DNA of 20,092 nt. Origin: a virus (taxonomy: Duplodnaviria; Heunggongvirae; Uroviricota; Caudoviricetes). Made by a program: the position numbers. The stretch lies in IMG/VR virus record IMGVR_UViG_2541047908_000008, positions 1 through 20,092 of that record. The stretch is one strand, 5' to 3'. The first letter of the stretch is position 1; every line of letters begins with the position of its first letter. Shown here piece after piece: positions 18,001-20,092 of this stretch.

Positions 18001-20092
18001 AGACACGAGGCAATCAGACCGAAGTGGCAAGGATGCTTTCCTGCGCAAGAGGAACAGTGCTCAAGTACAACCGAGACAGCAAAGGCGAGCGTCACGTAAT
18101 AGTTAACGGCGTCCTGATGGTCAAACAGGGCAAGAGGGGAAGACGATGAGCATAAGAGAACTAAACCTCACCAAAGAACAGCACGATTGGCTGAATGGCT
18201 GGCTTGAACTGTGGGGCGCATGGGTTTATTCAGGCCGCCTGGAAAAGCGCATGAGCAGCGTAATAGCGAAGTTCATGGAGAGCGTAGAGCCGGGAAGAGT
18301 TATGACAAGGCCAATGTGTAATGATGATGATGGAATGTTGATTTCTCAGGTCGTCGATTCCGTCATGTACATTGACAAGAAAGCCTTTGGCATCCTCCTC
18401 AGCTACTACGCTCATGGTTCATCTAAGCGAGCAATTGCATCCTACTATCACGCGACTGCAAAGCCACGCAAGATGTGTGGACGTGGTGGCGAGGGATGGA
18501 GAAAACCTTCACTGGCAACCTGTAGAAACGAAATTGACGACATCCTGAAAGCGTCGTTATTTGTTTTGTACCAACCAATGCAAAATGCTTTCAAAATGCG
18601 TAAACGTGTTGAGAAAGTTAAGCATGTTGCTGTTAAAAGCCTTGACATGCAATTAGCCATTTAGCCATAATTAGAAGGTAAGCTGCCGTTAGTGACTCTT
18701 AAGTTGCAACGGTGGCTTTTTTATTTGCACAACAGGTAAGAGCATTGAACCCGCAGACCTCGCGGAATTGGTGAAAGGTGCCGCGCAGTGCTCTTATCGT
18801 TGTGGTGAATCTCAATGGCGAGCTAGCAGATAGGCGATAGTGAAAATACTAGTCATGTAGCTGACCGCCGCGCGTACTGCAATCGGCAGCGCACCGATGG
18901 AAGCCGGTTCGATTCCGGCCGCCACAACCCAAACTGAGCCGTAGCCACTGGCTATCCTGAATTCATCAGTGATAGTTATGCTGCGGCCTTCTACATATGA
19001 CCTTCGTGAAAGTGGGTGGCATGAGGTTGCGCTAACAACCTCCTGCCGTTTTGCCCGTGCATATCGGTCACGAACAAATCTGATTACTAAACACAGTAGC
19101 CTGGATTTGTTCTATCAGTAATCGACCTTATTCCTAATTAAATAGAGCAAATCCCCTCAATGAAGGGGTAGAGCATGTACCGTATGGACAAAATCAGAGA
19201 ATGGTTCAGTTACAGCTTCGGAGGACTGACTGCGATGGGTGGCATTCTCTCCCTGAATGACTGGGCTGTCATCATTGGTATTCTTTGTACTGTCGGCACA
19301 TTTGGCATCAACTGGTACTACAAGCGCAAAGAGCGCGAGGACAGATTGAATGGCAATGTCACCGGCACTACGAAATAGCGTAATAGCGGCGATAAGTGGC
19401 GGGGCTATTGCTATAGCATCTGTGTTAATCACTGGACCAAGTGGTAACGATGGTCTGGAAGGTGTCAGCTACATACCATACAAAGATATTGTTGGTGTAT
19501 GGACTGTATGTCACGGACACACCGGAAAAGACATCATGCTCGGTAAAACGTATACCGAAGCAGAATGCAAAGCTCTCCTGAATAAAGACCTTGCCACGGT
19601 CGCCAGACAAATTAACCCGTACATCAAAGTCGATATACCGGAAACAACGCGCGGCGCTCTTTACTCGTTCGTCTACAACGTGGGGGCTGGCAATTTCAGA
19701 ACATCGACGCTTCTTCGCAAAATCAACCAGGGCGATATCAAGGGCGCATGTGACCAGCTGCGCCGCTGGACATACGCTGGCGGTAAGCAATGGAAAGGGC
19801 TGATGACCCGTCGCGATATTGAGCGTGAAGTCTGTTTGTGGGGGCAGCAATGAGCAGGTTAACCGCGATTATCTCCGCTCTGGTTATCTGCATCATCGTC
19901 TGTCTGTCATGGGCTGTTAATCATTACCGTGATAACGCCATGACCTACAAAGAGCAGCGCGACAAAGCCGCATCCACTATCGCTGACATGCAGAAGCGTC
20001 AACGTGATGTAGCAGAACTCGACGCCAGATACACAAAGGAGCTTGCTGATGCTAACGCGACTATCGAAAGTCTCCGTGCTGATGTTTCTGCT

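What the first reader, a model, noticed from the sequence alone, without database searches (positions are those of the whole stretch)
18665..19174. Structured Q-to-lysis intergenic region with a canonical tRNA T-arm but no complete tRNA
The 510-bp gap between Q and the holin contains a terminator-like hairpin after Q (18682-18726); an 8-bp long-range helix TAAGAGCA / TGCTCTTA (18737-18796) enclosing two mutually exclusive hairpins that share CGCGG; a canonical T-arm GCCGG-TTCGATT-CCGGC followed by CGCCACA-A-CCC (18903-18930) with no matching 5' acceptor strand; and a further hairpin GAGGTTG-cgctaa-CAACCTC (19024-19043). Many lambdoid phages carry pR', qut, tR' and sometimes tRNA genes here. 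This region may encode a tRNA remnant, a tRNA-like RNA or a novel regulatory RNA of the late operon.
Basis: seen in the sequence. Interest (0 to 1): 0.5.

Follow-up and report, generated by a model that had tools for sequence, protein, structure and literature searches.

The report
Unannotated tRNA-shaped RNA in phage leader
The "orphan" tRNA T-arm between the phage Q and holin genes belongs to a complete 133-base tRNA-shaped RNA that cannot decode codons, from a conserved, unannotated family found in many enterobacterial phages, including in the slot where phage lambda has its RNase III-processed N-leader stem.

Summary
The T-arm (18903-18919) does have a 5' partner. GTTGTGGTG (18799-18807) pairs with CGCCACAAC (18920-18928), and a D arm, a long variable-arm hairpin and CCA (18929-18931) are also present.

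Window 18799-18931 is a full member of a tRNA-shaped RNA family. I assembled 66 distinct sequences (147 copies) from lambdoid prophages and from virulent Salmonella and Pantoea phages.

- **Structure:** it is strongly supported by covariation. 93% of cells pair, 20 of 36 pairs show double changes, and 0 of 500 shuffles reach this.
- **Model match:** my covariance model scores the window copy at 141 bits, against 18-29 bits for real tRNAs.
- **Prior annotation:** ARAGORN, Rfam 15 and PGAP do not recognise it.
- **Anticodon arm:** the anticodon loop is replaced by an extended helix. Its 20-nt loop always carries a self-complementary hexamer (ACUAGU here), which covaries.
- **Context:** the family sits in the late leader, where relatives carry real tRNAs, or between nutL and N on the stem that lambda uses as its RNase III site.

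The function is unknown. My best inference is that the RNA is excised like a tRNA, is stable and can dimerise, and acts as a tRNA mimic. It is a new variant of a known kind.

The parts
18642..18671 (+). Late promoter pR'. The -35 is TTGACA (18642-47) and the -10 is CATAAT (18666-71). It overlaps the tandem octamers AATTAGCC/ATTTAGCC (18651-18666), which are the likely Q-binding element.
   Evidence: Promoter scan gives 11 of 12 matches. HK75 annotates pR' at the homologous place. Phage L, which has the same Q type, has the QBE AATTATCC/ATTTAGCC (PMC8022706).
18682..18726 (+). tR', the intrinsic terminator of the short pR' transcript, which Q-modified RNA polymerase reads through.
   Evidence: The stem is 18682-18690/18708-18716, followed by U6. 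It is annotated Tr' in HK75. It is invariant in HK75, BTP1, CUS-3 and SPN9CC.
18728..18733 (+). CACAAC, a 5' copy of the acceptor 3' strand (18922-18927). It could pair with GTTGTG (18799-18804), which would compete with the acceptor stem.
   Evidence: Read directly from the sequence. The flank CACAACAGG is conserved in front of the upstream hairpin in nearly all contexts of this subgroup. The alternative pairing is an inference.
18735..18798 (+). Leader hairpin ('module A'). A 12-bp closing helix, GGTAAGAGCATT (18735-46) with AGTGCTCTTATC (18787-98), encloses a hypervariable interior. It abuts the tRNA-like RNA with no spacer.
   Evidence: The helix appears in the MFE fold. It is kept by compensatory changes in L127, L053 and L091, and the interior length varies from 35 to 85 nt. 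Lambda has the same closing helix with a different interior.
18799..18931 (+). tRNA-shaped, non-decoding RNA of 133 nt (a 9/5 fold with a long variable arm). The parts are:
- acceptor stem 18799-18807/18920-18928
- D arm 18810-18823
- proximal stem 18826-29/18877-80
- internal loop AUA 18830-32 / GCGCGUA 18870-76
- inner helix 18833-40/18861-69
- apical loop 18841-60
- variable-arm hairpin 18882-98
- T arm 18903-19
- CCA 18929-31
   Evidence: The covariance model R1 scores it at 141.4 bits, E 8e-29. RNAalifold independently predicts the same structure. ARAGORN and Rfam do not call it.
18848..18853 (+). Self-complementary hexamer ACUAGU at the apex of the long arm, a candidate kissing-loop dimerisation site.
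   Evidence: All 66 distinct family sequences are self-complementary at this aligned position. The variants are ACUAGU, UCUAGA, GCUAGC, UCGCGA, ACCGGU and UCUGGA, the last pairing through G.U. Treated as pairs, 100% of cells pair and the covariation score is 0.71 against 0.14 in shuffles, 0 of 500.
18932..19174 (+). Conserved distal late leader, shared with lambda, HK75, BTP1 and CUS-3. It includes the terminator-like hairpin 19018-19047 followed by GUUUUG (19048-53), and the holin ribosome-binding site.
   Evidence: Alignment A1 and the lambda sequence. Pair 5 of the hairpin is G-C in lambda and SPN9CC, U-A in CUS-3, and U.C in the window.
19175..19378 (+). Holin gene, the first gene of the lysis cassette, followed by the SAR endolysin at 19350-19853.
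   Evidence: ORF list. PGAP calls it a holin in the 100%-identical E. coli MS15236 prophage.

Best explanation
Window 18799-18931 (+) is a gene for a tRNA-shaped RNA that cannot decode. [quoted passage not shown]

**Proposed sequence of events**
1. Transcription starts at pR', at about 18678. Q-modified polymerase reads through tR' (18682-18726).
2. It then transcribes a leader hairpin (18735-18798), followed with no spacer by the 133-nt RNA.
3. The RNA folds like a class-II tRNA. It has a 9-bp acceptor stem, a D arm with the GG needed for the elbow, a canonical T arm, a 5-bp/7-nt variable-arm hairpin and a 3' CCA.
4. The anticodon loop is replaced by an internal loop (AUA/GCGCGUA), an 8-9-bp helix and a 20-nt loop that exposes a self-complementary hexamer.

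**Inferred mechanism**
- The tRNA-like shape recruits the tRNA-processing enzymes: RNase P at 18798/18799, then 3' trimming or repair to CCA.
- The RNA is therefore cut out of the leader and accumulates as a stable species of about 130 nt. It can form homodimers by loop-loop kissing.
- It acts in trans as a tRNA mimic on some tRNA-binding host factor. The most concrete candidates are tRNA-targeting defence nucleases.
- As a side effect, excision separates the qut/tR' leader from the lysis mRNA.

**Shown:** the structure, family membership, strand, the self-complementary loop and the genomic contexts.
**Inferred:** processing, dimerisation and the trans-acting function.
For: **Structure**
- On 32 distinct sequences, 93.3% of cells pair, against 81.5% in shuffles.
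- 20 of 36 pairs have double changes, and the covariation score is 0.325 against 0.131 (0 of 500 shuffles). Slid controls give 31-45% paired.
- RNAalifold predicts the same helices unaided.
- A single relative, L121, folds into the model with a z-score of -4.5.
- G.U pairs at many positions fix the strand.

**Family**
- There are 147 copies and 66 distinct sequences.
- Model R1 gives 126-157 bits to members and 18-29 bits to true tRNAs.
- 146 of 5426 complete E. coli genomes carry the window's form. It is unannotated there.

**tRNA-like ends**
- Many members end in A-CCA.
- In-silico removal of the inner helix gives ARAGORN a class-II cloverleaf.

**Own function rather than leader filler**
- The same RNA occurs in unrelated settings: virulent Salmonella phages upstream of and co-oriented with tRNA genes (about 100 nt upstream in Skate), with promoter-like sites upstream.
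- It also occurs in a Pantoea phage.
- It occurs as a stand-alone unit ending in an intrinsic terminator.
- It occurs between nutL and N.
- In the late-leader slot it is interchangeable with real tRNA-Asn and tRNA-Thr.

**Dimer loop:**

**Leader cassettes do yield stable RNAs**
- The P22 sncRNA P22B (96 nt) is the interior plus 3' strand of P22's gene-24 leader stem (PMC13397905).
Against: - There are no expression, processing or dimerisation data for this RNA.
- A 9-bp acceptor plus a 5-bp T stem gives 14 bp, which is not the 12-bp ruler of canonical RNase P substrates.
- The 5' leader is base-paired right up to the predicted cleavage site.
- The window copy and the Skate group lack the discriminator-CCA arrangement of the N-leader members. 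Skate has no CCA at all.
- This copy has a T.C mismatch in the first D-stem pair.
- ACUAGU is one of the weaker self-duplexes, at -4.8 kcal/mol. In this copy it can be partly sequestered locally.
- The collection patterns fixed parts of the sequence. The invariance of the D arm, the variable-arm hairpin and the T loop is therefore partly a selection artefact.
- No target of the proposed mimicry is identified.
Confidence: 0.5

Rival explanations
1. Purely cis-acting processing or insulator module. The tRNA-like fold exists only to attract RNase P or RNase III. Cleavage uncouples the nut- or qut-containing 5' leader from the downstream mRNA and sets its stability or translation, as RNase III does at lambda's N leader. 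The excised RNA itself has no role.
For: - The family sits in leaders of antiterminated operons. It lies after tR' in the window, and between nutL and the N ribosome-binding site in many prophages.
- In the N-leader members, the leader-trailer stem that extends the acceptor stem covaries. Pairing is 9.64 of 10 against 7.82 in cross-controls, and 4.73 of 5 against 2.84 at the variable positions.
- Lambda has identical flanks and stem at this place. That region is described as highly structured and linked to RNase III control of N translation (PMC5725501).
Against: - The cis function of the stem evidently does not need this interior. Lambda, P22 and this window's own gene-24 leader keep the stem with unrelated, shorter interiors.
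- Despite that, the tRNA-like interior is conserved by covariation, including a self-complementary apical loop that processing does not require.
- It also occurs outside leaders, in virulent phages and as a terminator-bounded unit.
Confidence: 0.25
2. Selfish or neutral RNA cargo. The element spreads by recombination at the conserved closing stems, which behave as 'boundary sequences', and it contributes nothing to the phage.
For: - The same closing stems carry at least four unrelated interiors: lambda's 67 nt, family 2 at 120 and 218 nt, this family, and real tRNAs in the same slot.
- CUS-3 annotates the flanks as boundary sequences.
- Interiors move between the two adjacent cassettes. ST1UNAM carries a lambda-like interior inside module A.
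Against: A neutral passenger would not be expected to keep 36 base pairs and the loop palindrome through compensatory changes, across lineages as distant as 74-78% identity.
Confidence: 0.1
3. Decayed tRNA gene, i.e. a remnant or pseudogene left after rearrangement.
For: - tRNA finders fail on it.
- Rfam sees only the T-arm.
- Real tRNAs occupy this slot in relatives.
Against: - All helices are present and covary.
- The family is widespread, and the non-tRNA parts are also conserved.
Confidence: 0.03
4. A genuine decoding tRNA whose anticodon arm carries an intron, or an unusual suppressor tRNA (CUA occurs in the apical loop).
For: - With the inner helix removed in silico, relaxed ARAGORN settings draw a class-II cloverleaf.
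- Several loop variants contain U-CUA-G.
Against: - Removing the helix leaves a 10-nt loop (AUA plus GCGCGUA), not a 7-nt anticodon loop.
- The insert is about 37 nt. From my own knowledge, that is far below group I intron size, and bacteria lack the archaeal splicing endonuclease.
- The loop variants UCGCGA and ACCGGU have no CUA.
- A 9/5 stack is not the geometry of an elongator tRNA (own knowledge).
Confidence: 0.03
5. DNA-level element. The inverted repeats and the palindromic hexamer are protein-binding or recombination sites, not RNA structure.
For: Five of the six hexamer variants are DNA palindromes. The closing stems are inverted repeats at mosaic junctions.
Against: - G.U pairs, which would be C.A on the other strand or in DNA, are frequent in the helices.
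- The UCUGGA variant (17 copies) is self-complementary only as RNA.
- A protein-binding site would conserve its sequence rather than covary.
Confidence: 0.04

Closest known systems
Canonical class-II tRNAs (long variable arm), especially E. coli tRNA-Tyr
   Same: - The element has an acceptor stem, a D arm with GG, a T arm with a UUCGAnU loop, a long variable-arm hairpin, and an encoded (A)CCA in many members.
- The acceptor of the N-leader members, GGUGUGG...A73, differs at one pair from tRNA-Tyr GGUGGGG...A73. I verified the tRNA-Tyr sequence.
- The 'CAG' subtype shares the GCAG/CUGC anticodon-stem pairs with tRNA-Tyr.
   Different: - The acceptor is 9 bp, not 7.
- There is no 7-nt anticodon loop. 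In its place are an internal loop, an 8-9-bp helix and a 20-nt loop.
- ARAGORN and Rfam do not call it a tRNA.
- The link to tRNA-Tyr is a resemblance, not a demonstrated ancestry.
Phage T4 species 1 and species 2 RNAs (rnaC, rnaD)
   Same: - They are stable small phage RNAs of about 120-140 nt, encoded beside tRNA genes.
- rnaC has a tRNA-like T-arm at its 3' end (CCGGGUUCGAAUCCCGG).
- The T4 record labels them only as 'small, stable RNA'.
   Different: - There is no sequence or model homology. R1 gives rnaC 13 bits, and only over the T-arm.
- No self-complementary apical loop is evident in them.
Lambda N-leader stem (RNase III-processed structure between nutL and N)
   Same: - In many prophages the family sits on exactly this stem.
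- L121 and lambda share nutL, the stem GGCUUUGG-GGUGUG...CACACC-A-CCAAAGC, and the N ribosome-binding site nearly base for base.
- The window's own gene-24 leader has the same architecture.
   Different: - Lambda's 89-nt interior is unrelated and scores nothing with R1.
- The window's element is in the late leader, not the N leader, and has no long leader-trailer extension.
- That RNase III cleaves the lambda stem is from my own knowledge (Kameyama 1991; Wilson 2002) and from the summary in PMC5725501. I did not test it.
tRNA-like domain of tmRNA
   Same: A T-arm plus acceptor end, with the anticodon arm replaced by other RNA. It is the only Rfam family that gives any hit (20.2 bits).
   Different: - The score is far below the gathering score of 47.
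- There is no tag reading frame, no pseudoknots and no G3.U70 pair.
- A real D arm is present.
Large phage-associated RNAs near tRNA arrays that self-assemble (GOLLD, ROOL)
   Same: They are phage- or prophage-associated RNAs found next to tRNA genes, and they form homo-oligomers through RNA-RNA contacts (PMC12990946; PMC12286853, listed).
   Different: Those RNAs are several hundred nucleotides long and not tRNA-shaped. Here a dimer is only predicted, from one 6-nt loop.
Family 2 RNAs in the same late-leader stem (CUS-3, Huey, JEP4, E212, HK629)
   Same: - They have the same closing stem GUUGUGGUG...CGCCACAAC/U, the same upstream module A and the same downstream leader.
- The first and last hairpins sit at the D-arm and T-arm positions.
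   Different: - The sequence is unrelated (R1 gives 12 bits or less).
- The loops GGCUGA and AGwUCAGCA are complementary over 5 nt, which suggests an elbow formed by Watson-Crick kissing rather than a D-loop/T-loop contact.
- The middle part is variable, at 120 or 218 nt.

Membership tests
Canonical tRNA (Rfam RF00005; ARAGORN) | Detected by tRNA gene finders or by the tRNA covariance model | tested here: not met
   ARAGORN finds 0 genes in the window and 0 at the element in 48 relatives. Rfam gives no tRNA hit at E up to 10, whereas the neighbouring Skate tRNA-Ile scores 62 bits.
Canonical tRNA (Rfam RF00005; ARAGORN) | A 7-bp acceptor stem stacked on a 5-bp T stem (12 bp in all) | tested here: not met
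   The acceptor stem is 9 bp and all nine pairs are supported. Cells paired reach 96.2%, and 5 pairs show double changes. With the 5-bp T stem this gives 14 bp.
Canonical tRNA (Rfam RF00005; ARAGORN) | Anticodon stem capped by a 7-nt loop that presents an anticodon | tested here: not met
   A 3-4-bp stem leads into the internal loop AUA/GCGCGUA, then an 8-9-bp helix and a 20-nt loop.
Canonical tRNA (Rfam RF00005; ARAGORN) | D arm with GG, and T arm with a UUCRAnU loop (the elbow) | tested here: met
   The D arm is GCUC-AAUGGC-GAGC (tCUC in the window). The T arm is GCCGG-UUCGAUU-CCGGC, and its stem covaries.
tmRNA (RF00023) | Score at or above the Rfam gathering threshold; tag ORF and pseudoknots | tested here: not met
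   The score is 20.2 bits against 47, covering only the T-arm and acceptor 3' strand. ARAGORN finds no tmRNA. In 131 nt there is no room for a tag ORF.
New tRNA-shaped family defined here (model R1) | Full-length match to the covariance model built from 32 distinct members | tested here: met
   Window 18799-18929 scores 141.4 bits, E 8e-29, over model positions 1-132. The window sequence was one of the 32 used to build the model. HK75 was not in the build set and scores 137 bits.
New tRNA-shaped family defined here (model R1) | Self-complementary hexamer NCNNGN at the apex of the long arm | tested here: met
   ACUAGU lies at 18848-18853. All 66 distinct sequences are self-complementary at this position.
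New tRNA-shaped family defined here (model R1) | Conserved internal loop AUA/GCGCGUA and variable-arm hairpin AUCGG-yAGCGCA-CCGAU | tested here: met
   Both are present at 18830-32/18870-76 and 18882-98. Their apparent invariance is partly forced by the search patterns. The hairpin stem does covary, as AUUGG/CCAAU and AUAGG/CCUAU.
New tRNA-shaped family defined here (model R1) | Discriminator A followed by CCA after the 9-bp stem | tested here: not met
   The window has CGCCACAAC followed directly by CCA (18929-31), with no discriminator, or 8 bp plus C plus CCA. The N-leader members have A-CCA, and the Skate group has none. The feature is therefore not universal in the family.
Lambda-type N-leader processing stem | Long leader-trailer duplex between a nut site and the ribosome-binding site of an N gene | tested here: not met
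   The finding lies in the late leader, 240 nt before the holin, with no covarying leader-trailer extension. A true example does exist elsewhere in the window, at 9601-9526 on the minus strand.
Lambda-type N-leader processing stem | Cleavage by RNase III | not testable with these tools
   This needs an in vitro RNase III assay, or end mapping in an rnc mutant against wild type.
T4 species 1 RNA (rnaC) | Sequence or structure homology beyond the T-arm | tested here: not met
   R1 run with filters off gives 13.4 bits to rnaC, which is at the level of unrelated tRNAs.
Bacterial Y RNA / YrlA and other curated tRNA-like RNAs | Match to any Rfam 15 family | tested here: not met
   No family other than the sub-threshold tmRNA hit appears, at E up to 10 in the window and at E up to 0.1 in L121, L003, L169 and L010.

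The most novel reading that the evidence does not exclude
Enterobacterial phages carry a family of CCA-ended tRNA mimics that cannot decode and that homodimerise through a covarying kissing loop. These RNAs act as decoys or inhibitors of tRNA-directed host immunity. Candidate targets are the PtuAB-type nucleases of Septu and retron-Eco7, which cut the variable arm of tRNA-Tyr. The family's acceptor end and its long variable arm resemble tRNA-Tyr.

On this reading, the two classical lambda leaders (nutL-N and tR'-S) are exchangeable 'RNA cargo' sites. Their closing stems serve both for processing and for recombination.
Probability: 0.15. Interest if true: 0.85.

Novelty: new variant of a known kind. 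Interest (0 to 1): 0.72.

Why it matters
- **An overlooked RNA gene.** tRNA finders, Rfam and NCBI's annotation pipeline all miss it, yet it is present in about 3% of complete E. coli genomes and in many phage isolates. Its structure is supported as well as that of many curated families.
- **A place in classical phage biology.** It connects two of the most studied regulatory regions of phage biology, lambda's N leader and late leader, to a hidden layer of exchangeable structured RNAs.
- **A testable system.** It offers a compact natural RNA with a predicted kissing-loop dimer. It also gives a concrete candidate for the growing theme of phage counter-measures to tRNA-targeting defences.
- **An annotation fix.** If the RNA proves to be only a processing module, it still corrects misannotations. 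Examples are a 58-nt 'tRNA-Ser' in one Salmonella phage and 'polyubiquitin-A' or hypothetical proteins called across the element in others.

Tried and rejected
- **Standard finders.** ARAGORN on the window and on 48 loci makes no call at the element. Rfam 15 at permissive E-values gives only a sub-threshold tmRNA T-arm hit.
- **Species-representative genomes.** The scan gave one true hit, in a 'Cellvibrionaceae' MAG contig identical to the lambdoid sequence and probably contamination, plus four chance matches.
- **First parse abandoned.** I first read a 7-bp acceptor with the hairpin ATCGG-CAGCGCA-CCGAT as the anticodon arm and a 55-nt insert after the D arm. I dropped this when GCAG/CUGC, GGG/CCC, GAG/CUC and GUGU/ACAC were seen to covary.
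- **BoxA idea downgraded.** TGCTCTTA/TGCTCTTT, just 5' of the acceptor, matches the rrn boxA core. However, it is the 3' strand of a covarying 12-bp helix, and the 8-mer is not enriched in the window, with 4 found against 1.8 expected.
- **Loop-to-loop contact left open.** I considered a GCGC contact between the variable-arm loop and the internal loop. The variants CAUCGCA and GCACGUA give no clear covariation.
- **Weak R1 hits explained.** They were ordinary tRNAs, and one was an ssrA 3' fragment at a prophage end.
- **No homology to T4 rnaC or rnaD**.
- **Literature.** Five searches on tRNA-like RNAs, lambdoid leaders, kissing dimers and anti-defence found no description of this RNA. Two further searches, on the lambda N-leader RNase III site, were for context only. 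Wilson 2002 (PMC126142) is not held.
- **Pas sRNAs.** The PasA and PasC sRNAs next to holin genes could not be compared, because the preprint text holds no sequences.
- **Shuffle control uninformative.** A control asking for 'any self-complementary hexamer anywhere in the loop' gave 0.495. The aligned-column test is the relevant one.
- **Not run.** I did not use the metagenome scan, because the viral collection had already given enough diversity.
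Full report
**1. Setting**

The finding covers the 510-bp gap between an antiterminator Q gene (18146-18664) and a holin gene (19175-19378), which is followed by a SAR endolysin. The start of the gap is a standard late-control region.
- A strong sigma-70 promoter is present, with TTGACA at 18642-47 and CATAAT at 18666-71, an 11 of 12 match.
- It overlaps the tandem octamers AATTAGCC/ATTTAGCC (18651-66). 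These resemble the Q-binding element proposed for phage L, which has the same Q type (PMC8022706).
- An intrinsic terminator follows, with a stem at 18682-90/18708-16 and a U6 run.
- Phage HK75 is 97% identical over the whole gap and annotates exactly these two features as pR' and Tr'.
- PGAP annotates nothing between Q and the holin in a 100%-identical E. coli prophage.

**2. Checking the observation**

- The TAAGAGCA/TGCTCTTA helix is really 12 bp, 18735-46 with 18787-98.
- The GAGGTTG/CAACCTC hairpin is one base off. It extends to a 12-bp stem (19018-29/19036-47) followed by GUUUUG.

The important claim, a T-arm 'with no matching 5' acceptor strand', is wrong.
- GTTGTGGTG at 18799-18807 pairs over nine base pairs with CGCCACAAC at 18920-18928. 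This pairing appears in the minimum-free-energy fold.
- Between the two strands lie a D arm (tCTC-AATGGC-GAGC, 18810-23) and a 5-bp/7-nt hairpin at the variable-arm position (18882-98).
- The four bases GGAA and the T-arm follow, and CCA lies directly after the stem (18929-31).

**3. It is a member of a family**

A sensitive search with 18727-18935 showed that 18786-18928 recurs in several unrelated phages.
- It is 91-94% identical in virulent Salmonella siphophages such as Skate, Akira, seszw, PSH-1 and CECAV_048.
- It is about 81% identical in gmqsjt-1 and ST1UNAM.
- It is 78% identical in Pantoea phage PdC23.

Four pattern scans of IMG/VR added many prophage copies. In total there are 147 copies and 66 distinct sequences. 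The window's form is in 146 of 5426 complete E. coli genomes, always on the chromosome and never annotated.

**4. The structure is supported by covariation**

I counted pairs on 32 distinct sequences (alignment A3). The model has these parts:
- a 9-bp acceptor stem;
- a D arm;
- a 3-4-bp proximal stem;
- a 9-bp inner helix;
- a variable-arm hairpin;
- a T arm.

The counts are as follows.

| Measure | Observed | Shuffled |
|---|---|---|
| Cells paired | 93.3% | 81.5% |
| Pairs with changes on both sides | 20 of 36 | 12.3 |
| Covariation score | 0.325 | 0.131 |

- No shuffle out of 500 reaches any of these values.
- Sliding the 3' partners by 1-3 columns drops pairing to 31-45%.
- Examples of covariation are GCAG/CUGC, GGG/CCC, GAG/CUC and GUGU/ACAC in the proximal stem. 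The inner helix shows GGCG..CGCC, GUUUUGCGG/CCGCAAAAU and GGUAU/AUACC. The T stem shows GCCGG, GCAGG, GUAGG, GCUGG and GAUGG with matching partners.
- RNAalifold, given only the alignment, returns the same helices.
- A single N-leader member, L121, folds into the full model with a z-score of -4.5.
- Frequent G.U pairs place the RNA on the + strand, the strand of the late operon.
- A covariance model (R1) scores members at 126-157 bits. The window scores 141.4 bits, E 8e-29. HK75, which was not in the build set, scores 137 bits. Real tRNAs in the same loci score 18-29 bits.

Caveats:
- The search patterns fixed parts of the D arm, the variable-arm hairpin and the T loop, so their invariance is partly imposed. 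The covarying positions lie outside the fixed bases.
- This copy has a T.C mismatch at the first D-stem pair.

**5. What kind of RNA**

It is tRNA-shaped but cannot decode.
- The elbow elements are canonical: GG in the D loop, UUCGAnU in the T loop and a 5-bp T stem. The variable arm is long, as in class-II tRNAs.
- With the inner helix deleted in silico, ARAGORN draws a class-II cloverleaf.
- The acceptor is 9 bp, giving a 14-bp stack with the T stem. From my own knowledge, elongator tRNAs have 12 bp, and tRNA-Sec and allo-tRNAs have 12-13 bp.
- Where the anticodon loop should be there is a conserved asymmetric internal loop (AUA/GCGCGUA), an 8-9-bp helix and a 20-nt loop.
- Many members encode discriminator A plus CCA. 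The window has CCA immediately after the 9-nt strand, and the Skate group has none.
- ARAGORN, Rfam 15 and PGAP do not recognise the RNA.
- Database records carry misannotations over it. These include a 58-nt 'tRNA-Ser', 'polyubiquitin-A' and hypothetical proteins.

**6. A self-complementary apical loop**

At one aligned position in the 20-nt loop (18848-53 here), every one of the 66 distinct sequences has a self-complementary hexamer.

| Hexamer | Copies |
|---|---|
| ACUAGU | 85 |
| UCUAGA | 22 |
| UCUGGA | 17 |
| UCGCGA | 14 |
| GCUAGC | 7 |
| ACCGGU | 2 |

- UCUGGA is self-complementary only through G.U pairs, that is, only as RNA.
- Treated as pairs 1-6, 2-5 and 3-4, all cells pair. The covariation score is 0.71 against 0.14, with 0 of 500 shuffles reaching it.
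- Adjacent positions cannot pair within one molecule. The simplest reading is therefore an intermolecular loop-loop contact, a homodimer.
- Nearest-neighbour self-duplex energies run from -3.6 to -10.1 kcal/mol. The HIV-1 dimerisation hexamer GUGCAC gives -7.9 on the same scale.
- Dimerisation itself is inferred, not shown.

**7. Genomic contexts**

*(a) Late leader.* This is the window's context, shared with HK75 and many prophages. Alignment with relatives shows conserved flanks around a variable slot.
- BTP1 and SPN9CC carry tRNA-Asn and tRNA-Thr in the slot. Phage L and Sf6 do likewise (PMC8022706).
- CUS-3 and Huey (218 nt), and JEP4, E212 and HK629 (120 nt), carry an unrelated 'family 2' RNA in the same closing stem.
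- Lambda itself has GUUGUGCUG-[67 nt]-CAGCACAAC there. This carries a compensatory G-to-C and C-to-G change in the stem.

*(b) N leader.* In many prophages the RNA lies between the nutL boxB hairpin and the ribosome-binding site of an N-type gene.
- L121 and lambda are nearly identical through nutL, the stem GGCUUUGG-GGUGUG...CACACC-A-CCAAAGC and the N start. They differ only in the interior.
- In these members the leader-trailer stem covaries. Pairing is 9.64 of 10 against 7.82 in cross-controls, and 4.73 of 5 against 2.84 at variable positions.
- This makes a duplex of roughly 17-20 bp with one bulged A, in which the CCA is paired.
- From my own knowledge this lambda stem is the RNase III site that modulates N autoregulation. 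PMC5725501 summarises the region as highly structured and cites that work.

*(c) Virulent phages.* The RNA is antisense to the structural genes.
- It is co-oriented with, and upstream of, real tRNA genes: about 100 nt upstream in Skate, Akira and gmqsjt-1, and immediately upstream in L053 (Ile, Met, Ile plus Arg).
- In Skate, promoter-like sites lie upstream on the same strand.

*(d) Stand-alone units.* In 17 loci the RNA is followed 8 nt later by an intrinsic terminator.

**8. The upstream hairpin**

In the late-leader and virulent-phage contexts the RNA is always preceded, with no spacer, by CACAACAGG and a hairpin.
- The hairpin's 12-bp closing helix covaries. Examples are GGAGAGAGUAUU/AGUACUCUCUUC and GGUAAUGGCACU/..GUGCCAUUACC.
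- Its interior is hypervariable, at 35-85 nt.
- Some interiors contain T-arm-like hairpins, and one holds a lambda-like late-leader interior.
- CACAAC (18728-33) repeats the acceptor 3' strand. It could pair with GUUGUG (18799-804) as an alternative to the acceptor stem. This is an observation only.

**9. Mechanism**

*Shown:* the RNA structure, the strand, family membership, the self-complementary loop, and interchangeability with tRNAs and with other structured RNAs at two leader sites.

*Inferred:*
- The RNA is transcribed only when Q allows read-through of tR'.
- It is excised by RNase P and 3' trimming or CCA repair. In the N-leader members RNase III would act first.
- It accumulates as a stable RNA and can dimerise.
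- It acts in trans as a tRNA mimic.

*Arguments for a role of its own:*
- The leader stems work with unrelated interiors in lambda, in P22 and in this window's own gene-24 leader (9601-9526, minus strand).
- Even so, this interior is kept by compensatory evolution in contexts that have nothing to do with leaders.
- There is experimental support for part of this. The P22 sncRNA P22B (96 nt) ends 16 nt before the gene 24 start codon, and its sequence ends ...ACCAAAGCCAUUUCA. It is therefore the interior plus 3' strand of P22's version of that stem (PMC13397905).

*A concrete, speculative target:*
- Septu and retron-Eco7 cleave the variable arm of tRNA-Tyr, and phage tRNA-Tyr counters them as a supplement or decoy (PMC13096335).
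- The family's acceptor end, GGUGUGG with A73, differs from E. coli tRNA-Tyr (GGUGGGG, A73) at one pair. I verified the tRNA-Tyr sequence.
- One subtype shares the GCAG/CUGC anticodon stem with tRNA-Tyr, and the family has a long variable arm.
- I give this specific reading about 15%.

*Main rival:* a purely cis-acting processing or insulator module, at about 25%.

**10. Comparison and novelty**

- The RNA works like a tRNA-like RNA. The closest analogues are the T4 species 1 and 2 RNAs, the tRNA-like domain of tmRNA, and the structured RNAs riding on lambda's leader stems.
- It fails the membership tests for tRNA, for tmRNA and for every Rfam 15 family.
- It shows no homology to T4 rnaC.
- Five literature searches on this kind of RNA found no description of it. 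The library is incomplete, so an earlier description cannot be excluded.
- I class it as a new variant of a known kind: a tRNA-shaped phage RNA with a 9/5 stack and a covarying kissing loop.

**11. Limits**

- There are no expression or biochemical data.
- Many sequences are close relatives, so cell counts overstate the number of independent events.
- Collection by pattern biases the conserved blocks.
- Host range beyond Escherichia, Salmonella and Pantoea was not explored.

Noticed in passing
window 9662-9495, minus strand: This is the pL leader of a P22 gene-24-type N gene (ATG at 9503). It has boxA GCTCTTTAAC (9657-48) and boxB GCGCTGACAAAGCGC. A long stem follows, GGGTTTGG-CGGTGATGTG (9601-9585) with CGCATCACC-A-CCAAAGCC (9543-9526), closing a 42-nt interior just before the ribosome-binding site. 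The architecture, and part of the sequence, match lambda's N-leader stem and the N-leader members of the tRNA-like family. The fold z-score is -3.95.
   Followed up: partly
L003:1335-1552 (CUS-3), L005:435-652 (Huey), L006:422-541 (JEP4), L007:423-542 (HK629), L008:388-507 (E212): A second, unrelated RNA ('family 2') occupies the same closing stem, GUUGUGGUG...CGCCACAAC/U. Its first hairpin (ACGCA/UGCGU or GCACA/UGUGU, covarying) has the loop GGCUGA. Its last hairpin (GUCGG/CCGAC or ACCGG/CCGGU) has the loop AGwUCAGCA. The two loops are complementary over 5 nt, which suggests a tRNA-like elbow made by kissing. The middle part is 120 or 218 nt. Rfam has no match.
   Followed up: partly
L170:378-462 and L170:313-377 (lambda late leader); L169 (lambda N leader): Lambda itself keeps both late-leader cassettes. 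One is the TAAGAGCA...TGCTCTTT hairpin with a different interior. The other is GUUGUGCUG-[67 nt]-CAGCACAAC, with a compensatory change relative to the window. The closing stems of lambda's N leader (GGUGUGUG/CACACACC) and late leader resemble each other and the acceptor stems of the family.
   Followed up: partly
window 19018-19053: This terminator-like hairpin, GGCAUGAGGUUG-CGCUAA-CAACCUCCUGCC followed by GUUUUG, is conserved in lambda, HK75, BTP1 and CUS-3. Pair 5 is G-C in lambda, U-A in CUS-3 and U.C here. It might be the 3' end of a leader-derived sRNA. PasA and PasC, sRNAs described next to holin genes in EPEC prophages, are candidates, but no sequences were available to compare.
   Followed up: partly
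L107, L089, L013 (about 60-110 nt upstream of the element): The hypervariable interior of the upstream hairpin sometimes holds T-arm-like hairpins: AGCGGTTCGATTCCGCT in L107 and GCAGAGTTCGATTCTCTGC in L089. In ST1UNAM (L013) it holds a sequence close to lambda's late-leader interior. Interiors therefore seem to move between adjacent cassettes.
   Followed up: no
window 18728-18733 and 18922-18927: The direct repeat CACAAC flanks the composite unit. The upstream copy could pair with GUUGUG (18799-18804) and compete with the acceptor stem. The N-leader members have an analogous three-way arrangement: CCAAAG upstream, CUUUGG in the leader and CCAAAG in the trailer.
   Followed up: no
window 18737-18744 (-) and 18789-18796 (+): TGCTCTTA, which matches the core of the rrn/nut boxA, occurs as an inverted pair. 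The two copies are the two strands of the covarying closing helix. The 8-mer is not enriched in the window, with 4 found against 1.8 expected, so a Nus-factor role is unlikely.
   Followed up: yes
PMC13397905, Table 2 (P22 coordinates 12,426-12,521): The published P22 sncRNA P22B (96 nt) ends ...ACCAAAGCCAUUUCA, 16 nt before gene 24. This matches the trailer of the window's own gene-24 leader stem. P22B is therefore the processed interior of P22's N-leader cassette, a link the paper does not make.
   Followed up: partly
L009:2587-2644 (PQ186186.1); ON470589.1 and ON470594.1; L010:2563-2724; L005:466-672: These are database misannotations over the element or its relatives. They include a 58-nt 'tRNA-Ser', 'polyubiquitin-A', and hypothetical proteins called on the opposite strand.
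   Followed up: partly
L109 (JAUVQU010000080.1): A contig of a 'Cellvibrionaceae' metagenome-assembled genome carries the lambdoid late-leader sequence, identical to the commonest (L016-type) prophage form of the element. This is most likely enterobacterial prophage contamination of the bin.
   Followed up: no
L145:12071-12217 (-): The weak R1 hit here is the 3' part of ssrA (tmRNA), ending ...GGACGCGGGTTCAACTCCCGCCAGCTCCACCA. It is probably an attachment-site duplicate at a prophage end and is unrelated to the family.
   Followed up: yes
window 18810: This copy has T where nearly all relatives have G, which breaks the first D-stem pair (T.C). The same variant occurs in IMG/VR locus L063.
   Followed up: no
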